DNA of 40,238 bases from Minisyncoccia bacterium (GTDB lineage: Bacteria; Patescibacteriota; Minisyncoccia; Phycocordibacterales; DATDWN01). The notes below the pieces were generated by a model. That model did not search any database. It saw nothing but the letters and a program-made list of their open reading frames with translations, and was not told where the DNA came from. The number at the start of each line of letters is the position of its first letter. The first letter of the stretch is position 1. Positions 1 to 40,238 of this stretch are shown here, piece after piece. The DNA is taken from NCBI GenBank assembly GCA_965661755.1, contig CBFIEZ010000001.1, positions 1-40,238 on the forward strand. Reading direction: 5' to 3'. A program made the position numbers and the translations under genes.

Positions 1-77
1 TCAACATTCTTAATTTGTGTATTAGTTGCCACTCCAAGCTGTGTAGCTACATCTTGTGCATATGTTGTTGGGTTATT
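1..77. repeat. Terminal direct repeat, left copy, identical to 40162-40238. Most likely the assembly overlap of a circular or terminally redundant 40,161-bp genome.
   Basis: The first 77 nt and last 77 nt of the window are identical. A reading frame continues across the junction without a stop. Confidence 0.95.
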
Positions 78-5264: not shown

Positions 5265-6104
5265 CTACGCGTATTTAAGAGTAGCAATTCTCTTAGAGTT
5301 TTCACTGAATACTTTACTACCCATAACGAACTCTGACAAGATGTTAGTTCTGAAACCCTTAGGCTCTTTTCTTTCATCATATCCAGTCCACTGAACAGCA
5401 AGGTGTACAGAGTCTTTATCCATAGCAAGCATTTTCTTTGCTACAGCGAGGTTGTTAGTTTCGTAGATCAGGAATCCTGACATTTTCCCTACGTAACCTT
5501 CAATTCTAGCATCAAGACCTTCTCTAAATCCATCAAACAGACTTGACTGTCTAATGAGTGATGCAATAGCAGGCTCAACGAACAATGCAGCCTGTTGGAA
5601 TGCGTTGTTAGAAGCGAGTGCAACTCTCATTTCCTCAATAAGAGCGTGGATAGTTGTTTTATCTGCTGTAGCAGCTGATCCCTCATGCAGTTTGTTTCCT
5701 GTAAGAGCTCCAGTGATGGCAACATAAGAAACATATCCATCAATTACATTTCTCATTGAATACATAATCTGTGATCCGATCTTCTCACGAAGTGCAAGGT
5801 TAGACTGGATTTCCTCAAGATTAGTAACAGTAACGAGAACCTGTTGAAGTGTGTCAATTACAAGAGTTTCCTTTGTAATCGTGAAGGTTGTAGCCGTAAT
5901 ATCCGCTCCGGCAGTTGTACCAGTAGTGAATGAAATACGTGGGAATGTCTGTACTGAAACAGTGTCTCCCTGCTGAGTAATTTCTCCTTCAAACTCTCTA
6001 TTTGCCCATTCGGACATTGTAAATTGCTTATCTAACAGGGCAATAACCTGTTTCACAAGGATGTTCTCCTTGATGATGGTGTTGGTTCCGAGTGTAAAAC
6101 TCAT
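5265..6104 (-). CDS. Major capsid protein (279 aa)
   Basis: Uninterrupted ORF ending in TAG followed by TAA (5262-5267). It follows the portal and scaffold genes in the canonical order. It contains no TGA although it has 18 Gly codons. Confidence 0.65.
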   Translation of the reverse strand: MSFTLGTNTIIKENILVKQVIALLDKQFTMSEWANREFEGEITQQGDTVSVQTFPRISFTTGTTAGADITATTFTITKETLVIDTLQQVLVTVTNLEEIQSNLALREKIGSQIMYSMRNVIDGYVSYVAITGALTGNKLHEGSAATADKTTIHALIEEMRVALASNNAFQQAALFVEPAIASLIRQSSLFDGFREGLDARIEGYVGKMSGFLIYETNNLAVAKKMLAMDKDSVHLAVQWTGYDERKEPKGFRTNILSEFVMGSKVFSENSKRIATLKYA

Positions 6105-9004: not shown

Positions 9005-10549
9005 CTATAAGAGGTGTGAGAAATCCATTTGTGGTGCTTGGGCACTATCACTCTGGTCTCTATCTTTATCCCAGAATGTATAAGCTAATGCGTCTGCTAT
9101 GTCTGGAGATTTTCAAAACATCTTTTTCATATCCTCCTTGCTCATTATTTGTATCTTGCCTGCTAAGGTTCTCTTGTAGCGGATCATAGTAAGATCCTCA
9201 CGCCATAGCTTAGCATCTCCTACTAGTTGCCCACCTTTCCTAAGCCATTCAGCAAGTCTCCAGAAACATTCAGCACGTCTATTAAGGAATCTTTCCTCAT
9301 CCCATGCTTTGTCTCCCCAGTTCACACCATTCACATTTATTCTAGCTTGTGCAAGTTTGACTGCTACATTTGCACCAACTCCAAAGTTATCCACATATAC
9401 ATTATTGTGTGGGATGTTATAATGGACTATTGCTGTTCCTGTCTTCTCTGCTATAGAAAGCTCTGTACTTACTTTCTCACTAAACACTTGCATAGCACAG
9501 AAATTATCTCTTAGCACTCATTTGGTTTCATCAGATCATTCTCCTGCTGGATCAACTCCTAACTTCTTAAATCAAATGAACATCTGTTTAGGATCCGGCT
9601 CCATTGCTCTATAGTGGAGATCCTGTTCTAGTAAGAGTGGCACATATCATTTATCATCAACTCCATCTGATTTAGGAAACTCTCCAAGTACCATATATCT
9701 AAACTCATCACTATCCTCTCCATATTTCTCTTTAGCACGTTCTGCAAGATCCTTCACTACTGGGCTATCCAATCCATTGAACTGTAAGCATAACCAGTTC
9801 TTCCTATCACTATGGTGGCTATCATAGAAATATCCAATTAGTCTTGTGGGATTAGAAATCATAACCATAAGTGTGCTTCCACTAGTCATAGCTCCTTCTG
9901 CCTTTGTATAGATTATATCATCAACTCCAGAGGCTTCATCCACAAGTATACACACATCATCAGCATGTAGACCTGCAAGTGCTTCTGGATTGTCTTTCTT
10001 AGCTGTTTTTGCTCTAGCCCACCAATAATCCGGAGAGTCTTTCATACGTATATAATCGCTACTTCTCTCATACTGATCCTTGATGCTCTCAGGCATCTTA
10101 TCAAGCCATACTGCTATTTCAGTCCATAGGACATCTTCCATCTGTTCCTTGGTTGGTGCAGTACATCCAATTCTACATTTCTTGTGTGTGAACAAAAACC
10201 ACAAGAGAATCCAACTCATACATGTAGACTTTCCAATCCCATGTCAGCTTGCTACTGTGATCCTATTTGCTCACTTCTCTATAGAGATAAGGATAAGCCG
10301 CTGTTGCCATGTGATATGCTTTCCTTTCTCAAACTCTCCAAACATATCAACAGTAATCTCTTTGACTCTTTCTTTATAATCAAAAAGAGAGAGACTTAAG
10401 ATCTCACTAATGAATCATATGTATTCATTTTTGATAGGTTGTGGTCTAAGTCCCCATACTAGCTCTATGAAGTATATGGGAGACTGTTGTAGTCTTAGAT
10501 AGGTGGCTACTTCTTGTTCAAGTCTTTTGTTTTCGTCTTGGTTATCCAT
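9005..10549 (-). CDS. terL: Terminase large subunit (514 aa)
   Basis: ATG 10549 to TAG 9005-9007, with 8 in-frame TGA. Walker A VAS[TGA]HGIGKST, Walker B-like ILVDEASG, and nuclease-domain motif LGVDPAGE[TGA]SDET. Confidence 0.85.
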
Positions 10550-10550
10550 A

Positions 10551-10925
10551 CTATGTCCCTTTGTAAAAGAGTTGTTCCAAAGCCTCTGATCTCTTGATCT
10601 TTCTAAGCTGGAACTTGTTTATATAGTTGGGAGATAAAGATTTGTTTCTATTTCGGACAGTTATGAGCTGATTTTTGTCTCAGAATATCCATACATTCTT
10701 TGTCATATAATGTTGCATGCATCCATGTAATACTTCTAGTGATACCTTGGGATTCCATTGTACACTCTTAGGGACATCCCCATATGCAGTAACCACATAG
10801 AGGTTCTTATCATTCCTAAAGGCAAACTGTATATTTTCTCTGATCCAAGGGGCTACCTCATCATAAGTCTTAATGGGTAGCCTTTCCAATATTCTTTGGA
10901 CCGCATGGTTGCTTATCCTTATCAT
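10551..10925 (-). CDS. Hypothetical protein (124 aa) with an N-terminal ISNHAVQRILER motif resembling DUF4258/RelE-like folds
   Basis: ATG 10925 to TAG 10551-10553, one in-frame TGA. It abuts terL where a small terminase gene usually sits. Confidence 0.4.
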
Positions 10926-11438
10926 TTACCTTTTGATACCATAGAATCTAAAGTCATTTTTATAGTAGCTTATTCCATACTCACTAAACTTTTCCTCCCA
11001 ATCAAACATCTGTACATCTCTAAGTCATACATTGTAGTAGTAGTCTGTTGTGTAAGGGCTATCAGCTGGGCTTGTTCTCTTTGTCCCATGTTCTGCTCTA
11101 CCAGCACCAGCACAAGTAACTAGAAGTAATCCTCCTGGCTTCAATAGCTTTACCATGTTATGAATCGATTGTCTGAAATACTGATCGTGCTCTAACATCT
11201 CTGTAGATACAACCACATCATACCTTCCATAATCTGTCCACTCATGGACTGGAGACACAATATCAACATTAGGTCATTCCCCTATATCCATCCCAGTATA
11301 TTCACTATATGGGAAGTGTTGCTTGTTGTTCCCATTGATGTCCATGCTTCCAACATCCAAGACTCTTAGCCCAGCCAAGAAGAACTCTGGATGCTTCACT
11401 TTCATATCCTCTATGTATTGGATGACATTTTGGTGCAT
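10926..11438 (-). CDS. Class I SAM-dependent methyltransferase (170 aa)
   Basis: ATG 11438 to TAA 10926-10928. Motif I RVLDVGS, post-I GMDIGE[TGA]PNVD, and LKPGGLLLV. Confidence 0.6.
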
Positions 11439-11440
11439 AC

Positions 11441-11656
11441 TTAGGTGGTTGATGGTAAAATATATAAGTCTGGCAAGTTTTCTCTCCTATACTTGCCCAT
11501 AGCCTTTTCAAAGTTATCAATAGCAACATACCACTCATCACTATATTCAGCAAATGAGGAGATCTTATTCTCAAGATCATCCCACTCCTTTATAGCCTCA
11601 TCAGGTACTAGATATTGGTGTGAGCTCTCATCATACTTTATGTGTACCTTTTGCAT
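11441..11656 (-). CDS. Hypothetical protein (71 aa)
   Basis: ATG 11656 to TAA 11441-11443. Tightly packed between the GT2 and methyltransferase genes. Confidence 0.45.
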   Translation of the reverse strand: MQKVHIKYDESSHQYLVPDEAIKEWDDLENKISSFAEYSDEWYVAIDNFEKAMGKYRRENLPDLYILPSTT

Positions 11657-11657
11657 G

Positions 11658-12320
11658 TTATCTCCAGTTGTTCTCATCTAAAATCTTCTCCCAGGTCTTA
11701 GCATCCTGTTCCATCCAGTAGCTTACCTTCTTGTAGTTAGCTTCTTGCTGTTTCTTGTTTATGGTTTTACTATTCACTGTTTGACTCTCATAGTGTCTTA
11801 TACTTCCACCTCGCCCTACATCCTTTTGAGCCTTATGGAAAAGCCAATTATCATTGTAGAAGATCTTGAGTCTATCATCTATTGGGAATAGACTCTTAGA
11901 TCTTCTGAACATGAAGCAAAACCCATCAATCCCCACATCTCCATTGTTCATGTTGAGCTTCTCCTCATGTCTACGGAAGAAGTATGGGCAAGCTATTGTG
12001 TAGATGTCTGCTAGAGCCTTAAGAAAGCTAATTGTCTTAGGGTTCTGGAACTTGATGTCATTGTTGATAACCATGATATACTCTCCATGACTTTCAGCTA
12101 CTCCTCTATTCCAAGAGTAAGTCACACCTCTATTCTTGTCATTCTTAAAGTATCTAAGATTATCTATGTTCTTTTCTGCTATCCATTCCTCTGTCCCATC
12201 AGTGGATCAGTCATCAACAACTACAATCTCATAAGGCTCATCCATAAAGAGCTTAAGATTGTCTATGATTTGTTTAGTTCGGTATAGTTCGTTGTAAACT
12301 GGTATCACTACACTTATCAT
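11658..12320 (-). CDS. Family-2 glycosyltransferase (220 aa)
   Basis: The N-terminus MISVVIPVYNE...EIVVVDD[TGA]STDGT is the classic GT2 signature. The TGA at 12207-12209 sits on the invariant Gly of DDGS. Confidence 0.8.
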
Positions 12321-13084
12321 ACATTGATATTAGGGCTAAAGTGTGTCTTCATCTGCAATACTTCTTGCTTGCCATAATGTGCAACCTCAGCCTTAAGATT
12401 AGCATATACTTTGTATCATAGATCCTTGCATCTCTCAAAGAAACATAGATCTTCTGATATACATCTTTGCACCTTCTTAATGTTCCCATTCTCTACTTGG
12501 TATTGTGTCTCCCATCCTTCATGTTGATCTTGATGGAGATATTGCTCAGGCTTTCATGTGATGAGGTTGTTGACCCAATATTGGATCTGAAACTCAAAGC
12601 ATTGCCCTTGGTGTGTAAGGTACATCCTATCCACAACATCTCTACTTATGAGGACACATCATGTCCCACAGTTCTCTACCTCAATGATAGGCTCTTTATA
12701 GGTGCTTATATCTGTGATATGAGACTTAAGTCACTCATCATTAAAGCTAAAGATATTAGTAAGCTGATCCTTTGCCTCCTGGTGTCTAAGTGGAACTACT
12801 CAAGTCACAATGTCTTTGTCTGATTCTAAGAGGAGCTTTAGAGTATCAAACTGTGCAATCTGGTCATCATCGAAAAACCATATGTAGTCACAATTCTCAA
12901 TCCTAGATCTCTCTAGCAAGAGATTCCTTGCATACTGTACAGGCTGGCGTTCTACTATCGATATATTGTCAAAGACTAGCTCATATCACTCAGGGATCTC
13001 CTGATGCATGATGCTAAAGAGAACCCTTGGCTTTATACTTCCTGAACCAGAAGGAATCGCTACCATTACCTTTTTCTTTCTCAT
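12314..13084 (-). CDS. GT2-like glycosyltransferase (256 aa)
   Basis: VMVAIPSGSG, FFDDD (DxD), NCGT[TGA]CVLISRDV and EDLCFFERCKDL[TGA]YKV. There are 6 in-frame TGA, checked codon by codon. The start is ambiguous: 13084, 13144 or 13201. Confidence 0.65.
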
Positions 13085-13221
13085 TGTGCCATTTGCAATA
13101 AGCTGTAAATCTATCGATCTCATATTGTCTATAGTGGAGATCATTATTGTATAGTGCTTGGTAGAGATCTTGGATCTGCTTAATGAGTCAATCCATATCA
13201 ATCTTCTTAGTTCATAGGATT

Positions 13222-13806
13222 CTATACTCTTTCCACTTCAATCACTTTTCCTCAAAGGTTCTCACTATCTCCAATGATATTAGATGGGGATATTTCTTTA
13301 TCTTCTTCATGTGCTTCCGCATCACTTCCGGGAGTGCCGTGTTCAATCGCTTTTCTTCTTTCTGCTTCATCTGCAATGTGTGATAAACTAAATACTTTTA
13401 CATTGATGTTCTTAGTTTCCTCTGATATATGCTTGAGATTCCAGTCACTAAACTTCCTCTCTATAATCCATGCATATCTTTGCCATCCTTTTTCATCCCA
13501 TTGCATCTTTCTAAAGAGCTTTTTCTTCTGTATGAATATGGCTGTTGCATAAAGAGTGAGAAACTTCTGCAACCTTGGCTCAAGTTCCTCATATTTCTTA
13601 GTATTGACTTCTACCTTATATGCTCTGAATGTGTCATAGCTTACAGTGAGCATTGGATCTATCTTTTTGACTCTTTTATTTACTTCAAAGTAGAGATCCT
13701 CATCAGTCATTATTATGGCGTTTATGTCATCATTAACGACCTTTTCAAACTCCTGTAATCGATACACACTTAGTTTCTTTGGTCTTCCATTCTCTGTAAC
13801 TCACAT
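13222..13806 (-). CDS. terS: Putative terminase small subunit (194 aa)
   Basis: N-terminal M[TGA]VTENGRPKK followed by an HTH-like segment and ..WQRYAWIIERKFSDWN, a pattern typical of small terminases. About 2.7 kb separates it from terL. Confidence 0.45.
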
Positions 13807-13807
13807 A

Positions 13808-14467
13808 TTATCTCTTGCAGTGTAAAAGATGTGTCCTATCTAATGGATCATTGTCTATTAGCTTAACATCGAATCATTGTTTCTCAAAGCCTCACATTAG
13901 ATTGTGCACACTTCATACTCATGTCATAAACTCATGTGTCTCAAACATCATCTCATTTACGGTATCTGGGACTATCATGTCTCTAAACATCTCTATCTCT
14001 CATCCTTCACAATCGCATTTTATCTTAGTAATGCCATATGTCTCAATAAGGTGCTTGATTCATACTGCTGGCACTTCTACCTTCTCATCTCCTTCAAAAG
14101 GCATAGTAGTATTGTGTCATCCATTGATTCATATAGTGAGAATTGTAACCCCATCTTCTTTTGCTCATGCAACTGGTAGTGCCATTACATTCTCAATACC
14201 ATTTACTTTAAGATGCTGGAGTAGAAGATCATAGTTGTGCTTATATGGCTCTAATGTAATAACTTGTTTTACTTTGTCAGCTACATAGATGTCGTAACTT
14301 CCAATATGTCATCATATGTTGAGTACCTTATCCTCTTTGTTGTAATCCATCTCATAGCATCGATCTATGAGGACTTCTTTTAGGACATATTGCTCATCTG
14401 TTCATGGTGTAAAGTAGAATATCTTTCAGTCTACCACTGCTTTTCTTCTTCCTTCTTCTATGCCCAT
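13808..14467 (-). CDS. FkbM-family SAM-dependent methyltransferase (219 aa)
   Basis: VLNI[TGA][TGA]HIGSY, a Gly-rich SAM motif with tandem TGA at 14309-14314, plus ITKIKCDCEG[TGA]E. There are 13 in-frame TGA and no in-frame TAA/TAG. Confidence 0.65.
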
Positions 14468-15086: not shown

Positions 15087-15323
15087 TTAAAAACTTCCCC
15101 ATCTTTTCTTTCCACTTCTTGCTAGTGGTCTTCTTACACCAGGAGTCTCACATCCACATGTTTTTGTTTGTCCTGAGGTAAGGTTACTAAGTCTAATCTT
15201 CTTATCATTGCCACATTTGCATCTACATAGGAAATGTCTTAGTCTAAGTCATTTGATTTCATGGATGATTGTTAGTCCATAGAACTTATCTCATTTTTTT
15301 ATTTCTAGTTTTTTTCATTGCAT
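15087..15323 (-). CDS. Small zinc-ribbon protein (78 aa)
   Basis: The ATG at 15323 is only reachable by reading 3 in-frame TGA. Motif G.KFYGLTII...CRCKCGNDKKIRLSNLTSGQTKTCGC. Confidence 0.5.
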
Positions 15324-15360
15324 TGTGAGTTTGGTATAATGGGAACTAAAAAGATATTCT

Positions 15361-15445
15361 CGGAAGATGTAGGACTCGAACCCACACACCGAATAAACGG
15401 TGTCCCATTAGCAATGGGGTGCAATAACCATTCTGCCAATCTTCC
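15361..15445 (-). tRNA. tRNA-Ser(GCU), type II with a long variable arm
   Basis: Manual cloverleaf: 7-bp acceptor stem GGAAGAT/ATCTTCC; D arm GCAG/TTGC; anticodon loop TTGCTAA; variable arm CACCG-TTTATT-CGGTG; T arm GTGGG-TTCGAGT-CCTAC; discriminator G. Confidence 0.8.
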
Positions 15446-15477
15446 ATGTACACGGAGCAAGATGATCTGTCTTGCTC

Positions 15478-23908: not shown

Positions 23909-24469
23909 ATGCCGTTGTCGACTCCGATACCTCCGGCAGATCCATCGGAAAGTAAAGTTATACAAAAAACTACCAACCAACCCGGGAAGGTTAAGCCAGT
24001 AGCTAAGCAGACTATAAGCAATCCAGATCAAAAGTCTACGTGAGATAAAGTTGATCTAATCCACCTATCAGACTACCAGGATGGACTAGCAACCTACCTC
24101 TATAGAAATTGCCTAAAAGCTATTGGTAATATAACTTGAGAATATAGCTGTGAAAATCAGCTCAAGACATTCACAACAGAGAATGGAGCTTGGAATCTAA
24201 ACACAGTAAGTGGCAAGAATAAGAATGGAACTAGAGACTATGGGCTCTGTCAACTCAATGGATGAAATGCTGTCTATAGAAAGTTCATAAACTCCCCTGA
24301 CTTCAAAGATCCCTACAAGCAATTAGATTATTGTTTGGAAATATGGATTGATGCAAAGAAAAGATGATCGATGCCATGGTTTTGACACCAAATGTATGAC
24401 TATCTCTACTCCTCTAAGCAAATGGCAAACAGACTTAGAGCAAGATGATATGTCAAAATTGTCTCATAG
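23909..24469 (+). CDS. Lysozyme-like muramidase, c-type (GH22-like) signature (186 aa)
   Basis: FTTENGAWNLNTVSGKNKNGTRDYGLCQLNG[TGA]N parallels [27 protein letters not shown] of c-type lysozymes; both the Glu and the Asp are present. 6 in-frame TGA, checked. Confidence 0.55.
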
Positions 24470-24485
24470 TTTTAGCACTCTCATA

Positions 24486-25559
24486 ATGTCTAATTATATG
24501 TTCAAATATATCTGGAATCTAAGAGATTCAGTTTTCACGAAGGATAAAGGGAAGGTATTTAGTTGTTTTGCTTGTGGTGGAGGCTCTACAATGGGCTACA
24601 AACTGGCTTGATTTGATGTCATTTGATGCAATGAGATCGATAAGAAGATGATGGACTGCTATGTGTCCAATCATCATCCGAAATACAACTATTTGGAAGA
24701 TATTAGAGTTTTCAAGGATAGGGATGACCTGCCTGAGGAGCTCTACCATTTAGACATTTTGGATGGCTCTCCTCCATGTAGTAGTTTCTCCATGGCTGGG
24801 AATAGAGAGAAGGACCGATGAAAAGAGAAAAAGTTCAGGGAATGACAAGAACTCCAAACTCTAGACAATCTATTCTTTGACTTCATAGAGCTTGCAAAGA
24901 AGCTCCAACCTAAAGTGGTAATAGCTGAAAATGTGAAATGATTGCTCATCTGAAATGCAGTCGACTATGTGAAAAGGATCTACAAAGACTTCAATGAGGC
25001 ATGATATGAGGTGGAACACTACCTGCTCAACTCCAAAGATATGGGAGTACCACAAGCAAGAGAAAGAGTCTTTTTCATAGCTATTAGAAAGGATCTAATA
25101 GCATGAATGGGCTTGCCATCAATTGATATGTTCAAGAACTACCCTCAACTAGATCTTACCTTCAATGAGAAGGAGATCCCCTATGAGGAGATAGAAAACA
25201 AGGAGAAAGAGTTTGAGGAATGAAAGCATATCCCTGAATGAATACTCCCCTTTTGGGAGCAAATCAAACCAGGGAGGAGTTGTTCAGACGTACACCCTAA
25301 GTGACATTACTTCCAAGAGCTCAAACTTCATCCTAAAAAGCCTCTCCCTACTCTTAGGGCATGAAGCAATAGTTACTACCACTATGAGAAGCCAAGAAGA
25401 CTATTTAATGATGAGATCATCAAAGGACAATCCTTCCCTAGTGATTATGACTTTAGGAAATCACAACCAATCTACATTTGTTGAATGTCAGTTCCTCCTG
25501 TAATGGTGGCACAAATAGCATCTAGAGTCTACAGCCAATGGCTTACCAAGATTGCATAG
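24486..25559 (+). CDS. DNA (cytosine-5) methyltransferase (357 aa)
   Basis: Motif I FACGGG..G..LA[TGA]F; motif IV GSPPCSSFS; motif VI AENVK[TGA]LL; motif VIII QARERVF; motif X C[TGA]MSVPP. 13 in-frame TGA, checked. The start could be up to 36 nt upstream. Confidence 0.85.
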
Positions 25560-33513: not shown

Positions 33514-35214
33514 CTATGCTGTTGCTACACAACGCCACTTACTAGCCGCAGCATTCCAGATAAAGCCAACTACTAGCATAGTGGAAATTACAGTTGTTGA
33601 AGGGAGTGTAACAGTTGATGACTCAAAACTAGATCCCCATGTAATTGCTCTTGCTGTCCCATTGTCTGTAATCCTTACTATCAACATATCTCAATCAGTA
33701 GGAGTTCCAGACAGATTAGTTGTCATTGATGTAATCGCCTGTGCAAGTCCTGTGATTGATGCAACATCCATATTATCTGTATTGATAGTTGGTGTTGCTG
33801 ATTGTGTGACTGTAGAAACTCTTTTTGTCACTCTCTTGTTTGTGAGTGTGTCTGTTGTTGCTTTTCCAACAAGTGTATCTGTAGCATCAGGTAATGTTAT
33901 TGTCCTATCATTAGTATGATTTGATGCAATAGTCATAGTCTTTGCTGTAGTTGCACCAGAAAGAAGAAAGGCAAGTGCCTTTGTTAAGTCTGCTGCAGCC
34001 CCTACCTTTGTTGTAGAATCTGAGAGGGTTTTATTTGTAAGTGTTTGAGCTGTTGTTTTATCAACTGTTGTTGCAGTATCGATAGAGAAGACATTTCCTG
34101 AAAGCCCAATACCTGTTCCAGGTGTGTATGTACCTGCACCAGCAATCTGGGCAAAAACGACACTTGTTGAGCCAAGTGTGATACTATTGTTAGTACAAGT
34201 CCATTGCGTATCTGCATTTGTAGTACCTTCTTTTATGAGTACAGTTGCTGAAACAAGTTCAGCTCCAGTATCAGAATCAGTTGCTCTAGTTGGTGCTCCA
34301 GAAGCAGCTACAACATAGATACCATTTTCAGCACCAGATGACTGGTTTTTGATGAGAATACGATCTCCCGTAACAAGAGACACTCCATCTACTGTCTGTC
34401 CATTTGCAAAAGCCGATGCAAGAGTCCCATTAGCTGTAGTTGCAACTCTTACTGCTGTTTTCCATGTGATACCTGTAATGTAATTATCAACATAATTCTT
34501 TGTCGCAGCATCTTGAGCAGATGTAGGATCTGTAACATTAGTGATCTTATGTGAGTTCATAGAAACATCTGCACTAGGTGCTGCCATTTGATCTAATCTA
34601 GAAGTTCTAACTTGTGTGTCAAAGTCAGATATAGTTGATGCTGTTTGAGTCCCTGTATGATTAGCTCTTGCCTTTAAGTTTGCATCTGTATCATTTGCAG
34701 TTGCTCCAGAAGCTATACCTGCAAGTTTAGTTTTCTCTGTAGCTGTATAGACTTTATTTGTAGTACCATTCACATGATTATCTGTGTTGAATGCATCCGC
34801 AGCCTTATTTGTTGGGTCATAAGTAGAAGCAAGCATATCTCCACTTCCTAGACCATTATCTCCAATATATTTTACCCAAAGACCGGCAAAATCTCCTGAT
34901 GCAGGAGGAGTGTTTGTGTTAGTCACAAGTTGTGCTGTATACTTAAGAGAACCACTTGGTGTATATGAAAATCATGCTCCTCATGTACTAGAGGCATATG
35001 CTATCCAAAGATATTGAGACTGTCCATCATCTCCAGGATCTCCCTGGTCTCCTTGATCTCATTGGTCTCCCTTATCTCCTTTAAGACCTTTTAGATCAGA
35101 CCATAGAGCATAGTAGATCTTATCTCCATCCTCACTATTGGCAATTTGTACCTTATCATTAGCCGCAGGCGTAACCTTCCTGGAAAAGTCATCAGGAAAT
35201 ATCTTAACTGTCAT
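33514..35214 (-). CDS. Tail fibre with an N-terminal collagen-like repeat (566 aa)
   Basis: GLKGDKGDQ[TGA]DQGDQGDPGDDG is eight consecutive Gly-X-Y triplets. The rest is a T/S/A/N/G-rich shaft. ATG 35214 to TAG 33514-33516, checked. Confidence 0.65.
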
Positions 35215-39320: not shown

Positions 39321-40238
39321 CTAGTTAAAGTTAAATTGTGAAAGCCATTGTGCTGGATCTATATTTCCATTTGGTGCTTGTCCTCATGTTACCTTTGCTC
39401 TAAGTGAAGTAACCTTATCATCAATCAACTTATAATATCCTTGCATTCCTGCTGTATTATATGTTGCAGAGTCTACTCTCACTGCATTTCCAAGTGATGA
39501 CTTAACAGTATCTAGCATAGCAAGCATAATAACATCTCTTACATCAGCTGTCTGTGATATGTTTGGTATTGTTTGGATATAGTTCTTTATGTCTTGATCT
39601 GTGAGCACTCCAACCTCTCCGAATATACCTCTTGCCACCTTTGGAGTGATAGCCTGGAGATCAGCTTTGATTGCTTGAGCTTTTGTGTCCCATGGATTAT
39701 TGTTTCTAATCAATGCATTGAGTGGTGCTAAGTCTCCTCCTCCAGCATTAGTAATATCATCATATAAGTGATCGAGTTTGTCTGTCACAATTCCTATATC
39801 CTTGTATTGCTTGCTTGGGCTTTCAGTAAGGGCTTTCTGACCTCTTGAGAGTCTCATAAGCTCATAGATGTCTGAATTAGGATCAGATTGTATGTCATTT
39901 TTTGATTGCTGGAAAGCATAATACTGTTGTACTCTTGCTTTGTTTTTATCTGTTTGTGGATTATAGTTCGATGAGTTGAACTGTGCAATATATCCATCAG
40001 TGATAGCCTTAGAATCAGCTCCTCATTGATCTGCTGCAGTGATACTTACTATATTTGGTGTGTCTCCTTCCTTCTTGAGGTTAGAGTTTCACGCTCCAAA
40101 TAGAACTGAGTACATACCCTTACTTTCATGTGATGATATTGCTTTAGCAAGTGCCAATGTATCAACATTCTTAATTTGTGTATTAGTTGCCACTCCAAGC
40201 TGTGTAGCTACATCTTGTGCATATGTTGTTGGGTTATT
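39321..40238 (-). CDS. C-terminal part of the 963-aa junction-spanning virion protein (continuation of 1..2051)
   Basis: Same reading frame through 40161 to base 1; the genome length is divisible by 3. Stop at TAG 39321-39323. Confidence 0.6.
40162..40238. repeat. Terminal direct repeat, right copy, identical to 1-77
   Basis: Exact 77-nt identity with the start of the window. Confidence 0.95.

What the first reader, a model, noticed from the sequence alone, without database searches (positions are those of the whole stretch)
10551..14467. A glycosyltransferase/methyltransferase island splits the packaging module (TerS ... 2.7 kb ... TerL)
The putative small terminase (13222..13806) and TerL (9005..10549) are normally adjacent. 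Between them sit two GT2 glycosyltransferases, a 71-aa ORF, a class I SAM methyltransferase and a DUF4258/RelE-like 124-aa protein. An FkbM-type methyltransferase lies just upstream of TerS. All are co-oriented and overlap or abut, for example through an ATGATAA overlap and a TAAATG junction. Such a sugar-plus-methyl tailoring set could modify a host surface glycan (receptor masking or seroconversion). It could also glycosylate virion proteins, or hypermodify DNA for anti-restriction. Its position inside the packaging operon is unusual.
Basis: partly seen in the sequence, partly recalled or inferred. Interest (0 to 1): 0.6.

Follow-up and report, generated by a model that had tools for sequence, protein, structure and literature searches.

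The report
Phage sugar-and-methyl cassette between terminase genes
A complete 40-kb phage that reads TGA as glycine has kept a block of soluble sugar-adding and methyl-adding enzymes between its two DNA-packaging genes, most plausibly to coat its own particle proteins with a methylated sugar chain; similar blocks are common in uncultured phages, so the case is useful but not unique.

Summary
Read with TGA=Gly (code 25), the minus-strand order is FkbM methyltransferase, TerS candidate, GT-A glycosyltransferase, GT2, a small acidic ORF, a class I SAM methyltransferase, a 124-aa ORFan, then TerL. The genes are tightly packed and no terminator lies between them.

The 194-aa protein matches no curated family. 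Its relatives lie directly upstream of TerL in other phages, and it is present in all three phages of this clade. The 124-aa ORF is absent from one of them.

The island is not a recent insertion. Two related recoded phages carry it at the same place. Its enzymes are as conserved as capsid and portal, and the accessory genes vary.

All island proteins lack membrane segments. The complete genome has no pathway for hydroxymethylated bases, no flippase and no intact integrase. The GT-A model is closest to STIV A197 and to collagen glycosyltransferases. The SAM methyltransferase family occurs in at least 597 viral loci, often in the order TerL, GT, methyltransferase.

Best reading (about 0.5): a late-expressed cassette that glycosylates virion proteins. 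It works like the mycobacteriophage Corndog cassette but is not homologous to it. Host-envelope modification remains a serious rival. The target is unproven.

The parts
13808..14467 (-). FkbM-family methyltransferase (219 aa, 13 TGA=Gly codons). Variable tailoring slot just upstream of TerS.
   Evidence: PF05050 scores 27.3 bits against a cut-off of 22.7; phrog_8156 gives 7e-16. It is absent from relatives L008 and L009. L008 has a GNAT acetyltransferase at the same position. An FkbM gene also lies next to the SAM methyltransferase family in L034. No membrane segment.
13222..13806 (-). Small terminase subunit candidate (194 aa), from a family not yet catalogued.
   Evidence: No Pfam or PHROG hit. 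There are 13 homologues with a conserved GRPxK...TDEEL...WQKYAWIIERKF core. Homologues lie directly upstream of TerL in L001/L002, L003 and L091. It is present in L008 and L009. The AF2 model shows three short helices, two long helices and a disordered acidic tail. The top BFVD hits are named 'Terminase small subunit' but are not significant, E 0.27-0.7.
13085..13221 (-). 137-nt spacer between the TerS stop and the GT-A start.
   Evidence: Homologues of the GT-A align from the ATG at 13084. The in-frame upstream extension is not conserved as protein in L008 or L009. No terminator-like site on the minus strand.
12314..13084 (-). GT-A glycosyltransferase (256 aa) of family phrog_1574. Likely the initiating, acceptor-specific enzyme.
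   Evidence: phrog_1574 gives 7e-16; PF00535 is below threshold. The family has 1126 representative homologues with invariant DxD (D72, D74), E211-D212 and H236. The AF2 model has pLDDT 91. Foldseek top hits are STIV A197 (8e-9), human LH3 and COLGALT1, then mimivirus R699, TarP and pgant9. It is 63-64% identical in L008 and L009.
11658..12320 (-). GT2 glycosyltransferase (220 aa, soluble). Likely elongates the glycan.
   Evidence: PF00535 gives 3.7e-22, 79.5 bits. Best solved relatives are 6p61, chondroitin synthase K4CP and GalT1. No membrane segment. It is 61-69% identical in L008 and L009.
11441..11677 (-). Small acidic ORF (78 aa, or 71 aa from ATG 11656), function unknown.
   Evidence: phrog_12267 gives 1e-7, aligned from residue 9. 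A 69-aa ORF occupies the same slot in L008, with only marginal similarity, E 0.044.
10926..11438 (-). Class I SAM methyltransferase (170 aa) of family phrog_32762. Likely methylates the glycan.
   Evidence: PF13489 gives 1.4e-8; phrog_32762 gives 1.7e-35. There are 389 close homologues and at least 597 IMG/VR loci. Neighbours elsewhere are GT2, GT1, DUF5672+GT9, Stealth, FkbM and a second methyltransferase. It is 63-69% identical in L008 and L009.
10551..10925 (-). 124-aa ORFan, accessory.
   Evidence: No Pfam hit at E<=10. One weak PHROG hit, phrog_6182, E 0.0015. No homologue in 5.8 billion proteins other than itself. A 51%-identical copy is in L009 and none in L008, where the methyltransferase overlaps the TerL start.
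9005..10549 (-). Large terminase subunit (514 aa, 8 TGA=Gly codons).
   Evidence: phrog_2 gives 1e-41; phrog_5902 gives 6e-52. The Walker A motif reads GHGIGKST only under TGA=Gly. It is 58-61% identical in L008 and L009.

Best explanation
The region is a conserved, late-expressed cassette of soluble cytoplasmic enzymes, built into the packaging and morphogenesis operon between the true small terminase gene and the large terminase gene.

Proposed mechanism:
1. It is transcribed together with the terminase, portal and capsid genes.
2. The 256-aa GT-A enzyme puts a first sugar on an acceptor.
3. The GT2 enzyme extends the chain.
4. The SAM methyltransferase, and in this phage also the FkbM methyltransferase, methylate the sugars.
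5. The most likely acceptor is one or more virion structural proteins (capsid, tail or fibre) while they assemble in the cytoplasm, so progeny particles carry a lineage-specific methylated glycan.

Shown: gene identities, operon layout, conservation in relatives, lack of membrane segments, and recurrence of glycosyltransferase-plus-methyltransferase cassettes beside TerL.

Inferred: the order of enzyme action, the methyl acceptor being a sugar, and above all the virion protein as target.
For: 1. Enzyme identities rest on significant matches.
2. The GT-A family keeps its DxD, ED and His residues in 33 aligned members.
3. Two related TGA=Gly phages, L008 and L009, have TerS, GT-A, GT2, methyltransferase and TerL in the same order. 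Island enzymes are 61-69% identical. Capsid is 66-70%, portal 63-68%, TerL 58-61% and TerS 37-41%. The enzymes are therefore kept as strictly as core virion genes.
4. Accessory content varies between the three phages. The window has FkbM, L008 has a GNAT acetyltransferase in the same slot, and L009 has an extra 575-aa double GT2. This is the pattern expected of an exposed glycan that diversifies.
5. There is no minus-strand terminator in the island, and the junctions are overlapping or abutting.
6. No island protein has a membrane segment.
7. The high-confidence GT-A model is closest to STIV A197 and then to the collagen hydroxylysine glycosyltransferases LH3 and COLGALT1. A197 is an essential viral glycosyltransferase from a virus whose capsid protein is glycosylated (PMC10551542).
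8. The same methyltransferase family lies inside structural modules elsewhere. In Pontimonas phage phiPsal1 the order is capsid, GT1, methyltransferase, GT2, neck. In cyanophage S-CBS4 it is portal, GT1, methyltransferase. In 38 of 79 IMG/VR loci it is TerL, GT, methyltransferase.
9. There is an experimental precedent. Corndog-type mycobacteriophages carry an O-methyltransferase and three glycosyltransferases between portal and protease (PMC4351075). These are reported to modify capsid and tail-tube proteins (Freeman et al. 2023, as cited in PMC11600133 and PMC12619734).
Against: - No glycan has been observed on any protein of this phage. The target is inferred from position and analogy only.
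- The cassette has no detectable sequence homology to Corndog gp35-38, by single sequence or by profile, at E<=10.
- The capsid protein has no obvious Ser/Thr-rich terminal tail to serve as an acceptor.
- GT-A folds all resemble one another, so the Foldseek ranking is only suggestive. The wall-teichoic-acid enzyme TarP is also among the hits.
- The co-binned host genome shows no recognisable nucleotide-sugar synthesis: no PF00483, PF12804 or PF01370. The sugar donor is therefore unexplained.
Confidence: 0.5

Rival explanations
1. The cassette modifies a host envelope glycopolymer, such as a teichoic-acid-like polymer, an S-layer glycoprotein or a lipoglycan, from the cytoplasmic side late in infection. 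This would mask the receptor, so that progeny are not lost on cell debris, or would block superinfection.
For: Soluble cytoplasmic GT-A enzymes of this kind exist: prophage TarP is among the fold matches. The GT2 N-terminus matches PHROG families labelled for O-antigen conversion. Variable accessory enzymes fit a surface glycan under diversifying selection just as well.
Against: The genes sit in the late packaging operon, and the phage has only an N-terminal integrase remnant, so lysogenic conversion is unlikely. The phage has no flippase, no polyprenol-phosphate transferase and no membrane protein in the island. The co-binned host has only one other GT2, one GT1 and one MraY-type enzyme, and no TagF-type enzyme, so there is little glycan to remodel. 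The repeated placement next to TerL, portal and capsid genes in unrelated phages is not explained by this reading.
Confidence: 0.25
2. The enzymes hypermodify phage DNA by glycosylating and methylating bases, to escape restriction just before packaging.
For: The genes lie right beside the packaging genes. Phage glycosyltransferases that glycosylate DNA are well known and diverse (summarised in PMC12619734).
Against: The genome is a closed circle (77-bp terminal repeat). Its ORFs show no thymidylate-synthase-like hydroxymethylase, no TET/JBP oxygenase, no nucleotide kinase for hydroxymethyl bases and no DNA polymerase. The phage already carries an ordinary DNA methyltransferase, phrog_116. The methyltransferases here are of small-molecule or sugar types (PF13489, FkbM), not DNA methyltransferase families. 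The best fold matches are protein- or glycan-directed GT-A enzymes.
Confidence: 0.07
3. The island is a set of hitch-hiking morons at an insertion hot spot, with no role in the phage's own cycle, or it acts on some other substrate such as RNA or a small molecule.
For: The TerS/TerL junction of this TerS family takes other cargo: six small ORFs in L092, a GIY-YIG endonuclease in L093 and an intein in the TerL of L001. The 124-aa and 78-aa ORFs are variable.
Against: The three core enzymes are kept in three phages at the same identity as capsid and portal, with intact catalytic residues. All but the smallest ORF use TGA=Gly, and GC content matches the rest of the genome, so they are long-term residents.
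Confidence: 0.08

Closest known systems
Mycobacteriophage virion-glycosylation cassette (cluster O Corndog gp35-gp38; Freeman et al. 2023, as cited in PMC11600133; gene layout in PMC4351075)
   Same: Both have one O-methyltransferase plus several GT-A-type glycosyltransferases. In both, the genes are co-oriented and tightly packed inside the virion structure and assembly operon. In Corndog the enzymes are expressed in infected cells but are not found in particles.
   Different: There is no detectable sequence homology. Corndog uses a TylF-type methyltransferase, a GT2-like enzyme and a GT25 enzyme. This phage uses PF13489 and FkbM methyltransferases, a PF00535 GT2 and a phrog_1574 GT-A. Corndog's block lies between portal and protease; this one lies between TerS and TerL. 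The host here is a tiny-genome bacterium that reads TGA as Gly, not an actinobacterium. Glycans on the particle are shown for Corndog and not for this phage.
STIV A197, a minimal viral GT-A glycosyltransferase (PDB 2c0n)
   Same: It is the best structural match to the 256-aa GT-A model (E 8e-9, TM 0.52/0.68). It is a small soluble viral enzyme with a DxD motif, essential to a virus whose major capsid protein is glycosylated (PMC10551542).
   Different: Identity is only 15%. A197 comes from an archaeal virus with a different virion architecture, and its own acceptor is still only presumed.
GT-plus-methyltransferase cassettes of Pontimonas phage phiPsal1 and Synechococcus phage S-CBS4
   Same: They carry homologues of the same SAM methyltransferase (35-39% identity), next to glycosyltransferases inside the head and neck gene block.
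   Different: The partner is a GT1 (GT-B) enzyme rather than the phrog_1574 GT-A. The block lies after the portal or capsid gene, not between the terminase genes. None of them has been studied experimentally (PMC6106888 does not discuss the phage further).
Prophage TarP / Gtr-type serotype conversion
   Same: These are phage-encoded GT-A enzymes that act on host surface polymers. TarP appears among the fold matches.
   Different: Those systems belong to temperate phages and are expressed from the prophage. Gtr systems need a flippase and membrane-bound GtrB and GtrC. Here there is no intact integrase, no flippase and no membrane segment, and the genes are in the late operon.

Membership tests
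Small terminase subunit (TerS), for 13222-13806 | The gene lies immediately upstream of the large terminase gene in related genomes. | tested here: met
   Homologues are 10 bp upstream of an intein-bearing TerL (L001/L002), overlap a 419-aa TerL (L091), and are 360 bp upstream of a phrog_2 TerL (L003).
Small terminase subunit (TerS), for 13222-13806 | Match to a curated TerS family (Pfam or PHROGs) or to a solved TerS structure. | tested here: not met
   No Pfam or PHROG hit. The profile search against PDB sequences found nothing relevant. Foldseek against PDB gave no significant hit. The top BFVD hits are named TerS but have E 0.27-0.7.
Small terminase subunit (TerS), for 13222-13806 | N-terminal DNA-binding helices, a helical oligomerisation core and a flexible C-terminal tail. 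| tested here: inconclusive
   The AF2 model has short helices at 14-49, long helices at 77-100 and 105-121, and a disordered acidic tail from about 130. This is consistent with TerS, but a monomer model cannot show ring assembly.
Glycosyltransferase family 2 (PF00535), for 11658-12320 | Score above the Pfam gathering threshold. | tested here: met
   79.5 bits against a cut-off of 23.3.
Glycosyltransferase family 2 (PF00535), for 12314-13084 | Score above the Pfam gathering threshold. | tested here: not met
   16.8 bits against a cut-off of 23.3. It belongs to phrog_1574 instead.
GT-A fold, metal-dependent glycosyltransferase, for 12314-13084 | Rossmann-like GT-A fold with a conserved DxD motif. 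| tested here: met
   Model pLDDT is 91. 229 PDB chains match at E<=0.001, and those listed are GT-A enzymes or nucleotidyltransferases. D72 and D74 are invariant in 33 sequences.
Class I SAM methyltransferase / phrog_32762, for 10926-11438 | Significant match to the family profiles. | tested here: met
   PF13489 scores 35.1 bits against a cut-off of 27; phrog_32762 gives 1.7e-35 over the whole length.
FkbM methyltransferase (PF05050), for 13808-14467 | Score above the Pfam gathering threshold. | tested here: met
   27.3 bits against a cut-off of 22.7.
DUF4258 / RelE-like, for 10551-10925 | Match to the Pfam family. | tested here: not met
   No Pfam family at E<=10. No homologue other than itself in the large protein search.
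Mycobacteriophage-type virion glycosylation system | Glycosyltransferases plus a methyltransferase encoded inside the virion assembly operon. | tested here: met
   The island lies between TerS and TerL, upstream of portal and capsid, with no terminator.
Mycobacteriophage-type virion glycosylation system | Homology to the validated enzymes (Corndog gp35-38). | tested here: not met
   phmmer and family-profile searches found nothing at E<=10.
Mycobacteriophage-type virion glycosylation system | Glycans found on capsid or tail proteins. | not testable with these tools
   This needs particles or co-expression plus mass spectrometry.
Phage DNA glycosylation (T-even type and relatives) | A pathway that makes a hydroxymethylated or otherwise activated base for the sugar. 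| tested here: not met
   No such gene was found among the ORFs of the closed 40-kb genome.
Gtr-type O-antigen conversion | Membrane-bound GtrB with a GtrA flippase and a GtrC partner. | tested here: not met
   Maximum 19-residue hydropathy of island proteins is <=1.28, so there is no membrane segment. The PHROG 'GtrB-like' match covers only the first 96 residues of the GT2.

The most novel reading that the evidence does not exclude
Phages of tiny-genome bacteria that read TGA as Gly coat their particles with a methylated, lineage-variable glycan. The co-binned host has no recognisable machinery for making nucleotide sugars. The donor would then have to be scavenged, for example from the organism on which the host lives, or be of an unusual kind. 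In addition, the widespread phrog_32762 methyltransferase with its partner glycosyltransferase next to TerL would mark a large, unstudied class of virion-glycosylating phages.
Probability: 0.15. Interest if true: 0.65.

Novelty: new variant of a known kind. Interest (0 to 1): 0.4.

Why it matters
Virion glycosylation has been shown directly only for mycobacteriophages, where it weakens antibody recognition. This case extends the idea in three ways:
- A non-homologous enzyme set occupies the same kind of place in a phage of a very different host that reads TGA as Gly.
- One methyltransferase family (phrog_32762) ties together at least 597 viral loci, often next to TerL.
- Related phages swap tailoring enzymes (methyl, acetyl, extra glycosyltransferases) at fixed slots.

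If the target is the particle, sugar-coated phages would be much more common than is now recorded. That would matter for adsorption, particle stability and immune recognition.

The work also defines a new small-terminase family that current profile libraries miss. It further shows that annotating this genome with the standard code would hide the whole operon.

Tried and rejected
- Table 11 reading. It fragments every gene and was replaced by code 25.
- TerL pattern scan of viral contigs. No relatives found.
- tblastn of the TerS candidate and of a family member against 50,697 phage records. No match.
- TerS profile against PDB sequences, and Foldseek of the TerS model against PDB. Nothing meaningful.
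- The idea that the 124-aa ORF next to TerL is the real TerS. Rejected, because the ORF is missing from L008, where the methyltransferase overlaps the TerL start, and it has no relatives elsewhere.
- Homology to the Corndog cassette. None.
- Search for an acceptor-like Ser/Thr tail on the capsid protein. None found; only a short collagen-like stretch in the tail fibre.
- CRISPR-spacer or other links between the phage contig and the rest of the bin. None.
- Promoter scan. At background level and not informative.
No read-level, expression or sample information could be obtained.
- dN/dS was not attempted, because at about 65% protein identity the synonymous sites are saturated.


Full report
**What the window is**

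Under the standard bacterial code the minus strand between 9000 and 14500 is a string of short fragments. All eight internal stops of the terminase frame are TGA.

The window begins and ends with the same 77 bases. It is therefore a closed circular assembly of about 40.2 kb, that is, a complete phage genome. It encodes:
- a large terminase, capsid, tape-measure-like and fibre proteins;
- a holin, a DnaD-like replication protein and a DNA methyltransferase;
- an RNA ligase/Pnkp pair, a NinG-like nuclease and an HNH endonuclease;
- only the N-terminal domain of an integrase.

It was binned with a 720-kb, 92-contig genome of the same GC content (37.3% against 37.9%).

**The observation**

In the direction of transcription (minus strand) the order is:
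1. HNH endonuclease.
2. Three small basic ORFs.
3. FkbM methyltransferase (14467-13808).
4. A 194-aa protein (13806-13222).
5. A 137-nt gap.
6. A GT-A glycosyltransferase (13084-12314).
7. GT2 (12320-11658).
8. A small acidic ORF (11677 or 11656 to 11441).
9. A SAM methyltransferase (11438-10926).
10. A 124-aa ORF (10925-10551).
11. TerL (10549-9005).
12. A 648-aa ORF (8969-7023) of portal size and position.

The enzyme assignments are significant. The ATGATAA and TAAATG junctions are present. No terminator-like site lies on the coding strand.

Three details need correction:
- The second glycosyltransferase starts at ATG 13084, not further upstream. Homologues align from there, and the upstream extension is not conserved as protein.
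- It is below the PF00535 threshold and belongs to phrog_1574.
- The DUF4258/RelE label of the 124-aa ORF has no support.

**Is the 194-aa protein TerS?**

It matches no Pfam, PHROG or PDB sequence. It does have 13 homologues with a strongly conserved core, and their genomic positions are informative:
- L001/L002: the homologue ends 10 bp before a 799-aa intein-bearing terminase.
- L091: it overlaps a 419-aa Terminase_6N protein that is followed by portal-sized, capsid and adaptor genes.
- L003: it lies 360 bp before a 509-aa protein that matches TerL family phrog_2 at 4.5e-29.
- L092: it is separated by 1.4 kb of six small ORFs from a TerL related to the window's own.
- L093: small ORFs and a GIY-YIG endonuclease follow it.

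The AF2 model is confident over residues 10-130. It shows short N-terminal helices, two long helices and a disordered acidic tail. The best BFVD matches are annotated small terminases but are not significant.

The alternative candidate is the 124-aa ORF next to TerL. It is absent from relative L008 and has no homologues elsewhere. I therefore accept the 194-aa protein as TerS with about 0.8 confidence, on positional rather than structural grounds. I also conclude that the TerS/TerL junction of this family is a general landing place for extra genes.

**The island is conserved, not a one-off**

The closest homologues of the SAM methyltransferase (67% and 63% identity) led to two contigs, L008 and L009. 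L008 needs TGA read as a residue to give the looked-up protein. Read under code 25, both contigs match the window's whole structural module at 55-70% protein identity.

| Protein | Identity to L008/L009 |
|---|---|
| GT-A | 63-64% |
| GT2 | 61-69% |
| SAM methyltransferase | 63-69% |
| Capsid | 66-70% |
| Portal | 63-68% |
| TerL | 58-61% |
| TerS | 37-41% |

Both contigs have TerS, GT-A, GT2, methyltransferase and TerL in the same order. The enzymes are thus under constraint as tight as the core virion genes.

Around this fixed core the content varies:
- FkbM is only in the window.
- L008 has a GNAT acetyltransferase at the same slot before TerS.
- L009 has an extra 575-aa protein with two GT2 domains between the GT-A and the GT2.
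- The 124-aa ORF is in the window and L009 only.

All island genes except the smallest use TGA=Gly. FkbM uses it for 13 of 23 glycines. GC content matches the rest of the genome. The genes are therefore old residents of a code-25 lineage.

**What the enzymes look like**

No island protein has a membrane segment.

The GT-A family has 1126 representative homologues. DxD, Glu-Asp and His residues are invariant in the 33 members aligned. Its model (pLDDT 91) is closest to these structures:
- A197 of the archaeal virus STIV, an essential viral glycosyltransferase of a virus with a glycosylated capsid protein (PMC10551542);
- the glycosyltransferase domain of human LH3 and COLGALT1, which O-glycosylate collagen;
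- mimivirus R699;
- further down the list, TarP, Mnn9, polypeptide GalNAc-transferase and SpsA.

The GT2 resembles sugar-to-sugar transferases such as chondroitin synthase and GalT1.

The SAM methyltransferase family is very common in viral contigs. At least 597 IMG/VR loci carry it. In the 79 best loci examined:
- 45 have a recognisable glycosyltransferase within two genes;
- 38 share the order endonuclease, 118-aa ORF, TerL, GT2-like, methyltransferase.

Other neighbours are a DUF5672/GT9 fusion, a Stealth-type enzyme, an FkbM methyltransferase and a second methyltransferase. In cultured or named phages the family lies between capsid and neck genes with GT1 and GT2 (phiPsal1), and after the portal with GT1 (S-CBS4). 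This company shows that the methyltransferase works on glycans. It also shows that such cassettes are habitually built into packaging and head gene blocks.

**Choosing between targets**

*DNA.* The closed genome has no enzyme for hydroxymethylated bases, no TET/JBP-type oxygenase and no polymerase of its own. It already has a standard DNA methyltransferase. I give this 0.07.

*Host envelope.* This remains possible, because soluble GT-A enzymes such as TarP act on wall polymers from the cytoplasm. Several points count against it:
- The phage has no intact integrase.
- The genes are late genes.
- No flippase or membrane partner exists.
- The co-binned host has only one other GT2, one GT1 and one MraY-type enzyme, and no TagF-type enzyme.

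I give this 0.25.

*Virion proteins.* This fits best the late co-expression, the soluble enzymes, the fold neighbours, the repeated placement among head and packaging genes, and the lineage-specific tailoring. It also has an experimental precedent. Cluster O mycobacteriophages carry an O-methyltransferase and three glycosyltransferases between portal and protease (PMC4351075). These are reported to modify capsid and tail-tube subunits and to weaken neutralising antibody responses (Freeman et al. 2023, as cited in PMC11600133 and PMC12619734; the paper itself was not held). I give this about 0.5.

The two cassettes are analogous, not homologous. No similarity to Corndog gp35-38 was found. Corndog's enzymes belong to the TylF, GT2-like and GT25 families.

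**Open problems**

- No acceptor motif is evident. The capsid has no Ser/Thr-rich tail. The fibre has an eight-repeat collagen-like stretch and is rich in Ser/Thr, which is only a hint.
- The host bin is estimated 94.7% complete. It shows no NTP_transferase, NTP_transf_3 or NAD-epimerase family member. The source of activated sugars is therefore unexplained.

**Verdict**

The TerS call and the enzyme set are right. The 'unusual position' is in fact a conserved and recurrent arrangement.
- The thing itself is a new variant of a known kind: a non-homologous glycosylation-plus-methylation cassette in the late operon of a code-25 phage, with an unproven target.
- Other notes of this scan describe similar cassettes beside terminase genes in other uncultured phages. 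These are unverified leads, but they agree with my own count of viral loci.

Noticed in passing
G000 whole genome (contigs other than C1): The co-binned 720-kb host genome (94.7% complete by estimate) has no match to PF00483, PF12804 or PF01370. It has only one other GT2 (C12:1407-1907), one GT1 (C2:704-1168) and one MraY/WecA-type enzyme (C36:2625-3119). The source of nucleotide-sugar donors for the phage enzymes is unexplained.
   Followed up: partly
L092:207-3571; L093:1542-3104; L001:6111-8952: In other members of this TerS family the TerS/TerL junction carries six small ORFs (L092), a GIY-YIG endonuclease (L093) or an intein with a LAGLIDADG domain inside TerL (L001). The junction is an insertion hot spot.
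   Followed up: partly
L009:7583-9310: Relative L009 has an extra 575-aa protein with two PF00535 domains between the GT-A and the GT2. This resembles the two-domain layout of bifunctional polysaccharide synthases.
   Followed up: partly
L008:4803-5309: Relative L008 has a GNAT acetyltransferase directly upstream of TerS, in the slot where the window has the FkbM methyltransferase.
   Followed up: partly
L011-L081 (38 IMG/VR loci, e.g. L055:5084-7891): A large uncultured phage group shares the order endonuclease, 118-aa ORF, TerL (436 aa), GT2-like (about 202 aa), phrog_32762 methyltransferase, then 119-, 96-, 66-, 196- and about 760-aa ORFs.
   Followed up: partly
L037:2120-3265; L045, L046, L047, L061: In several viral loci the methyltransferase is the N-terminal half of a 381-aa fusion protein. 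The C-terminal half has no Pfam match.
   Followed up: no
window 33514-35214 (-): The tail-fibre-like protein has eight collagen-like G-X-Y repeats at residues 43-66 and is rich in Ser/Thr. The best fold relatives of the island's GT-A include collagen glycosyltransferases.
   Followed up: no
window 15087-15446 (-): The HNH endonuclease ORF, as listed from its GTG start at 15389, overlaps the 3' part of tRNA-Ser(GCU) at 15360-15446. The true start is probably further downstream.
   Followed up: no
window 1-77 and 40162-40238: An exact 77-bp terminal direct repeat shows a circularly closed assembly. The tape-measure-like ORF runs across the junction.
   Followed up: partly
window 5265-6104 against 13808-14467 and 24348-25559: Use of TGA for glycine is very uneven: 0 of 18 in the capsid gene, 13 of 23 in FkbM, 13 of 25 in the DNA methyltransferase, and 1 of 11 in GT2.
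   Followed up: partly
G000:C28:8-1549: A second, distant portal-like gene (25% identity over 547 residues) lies on another contig of the bin. It may belong to another phage or prophage remnant.
   Followed up: no
L090:1167-6615 (Pelagibacter phage HTVC023P): A homologue of the GT-A (gp78) lies beside a GT1 (gp77) and near a 2OG-Fe(II) oxygenase (gp71) in the tail region. This combination recalls hydroxylation-dependent protein glycosylation.
   Followed up: no
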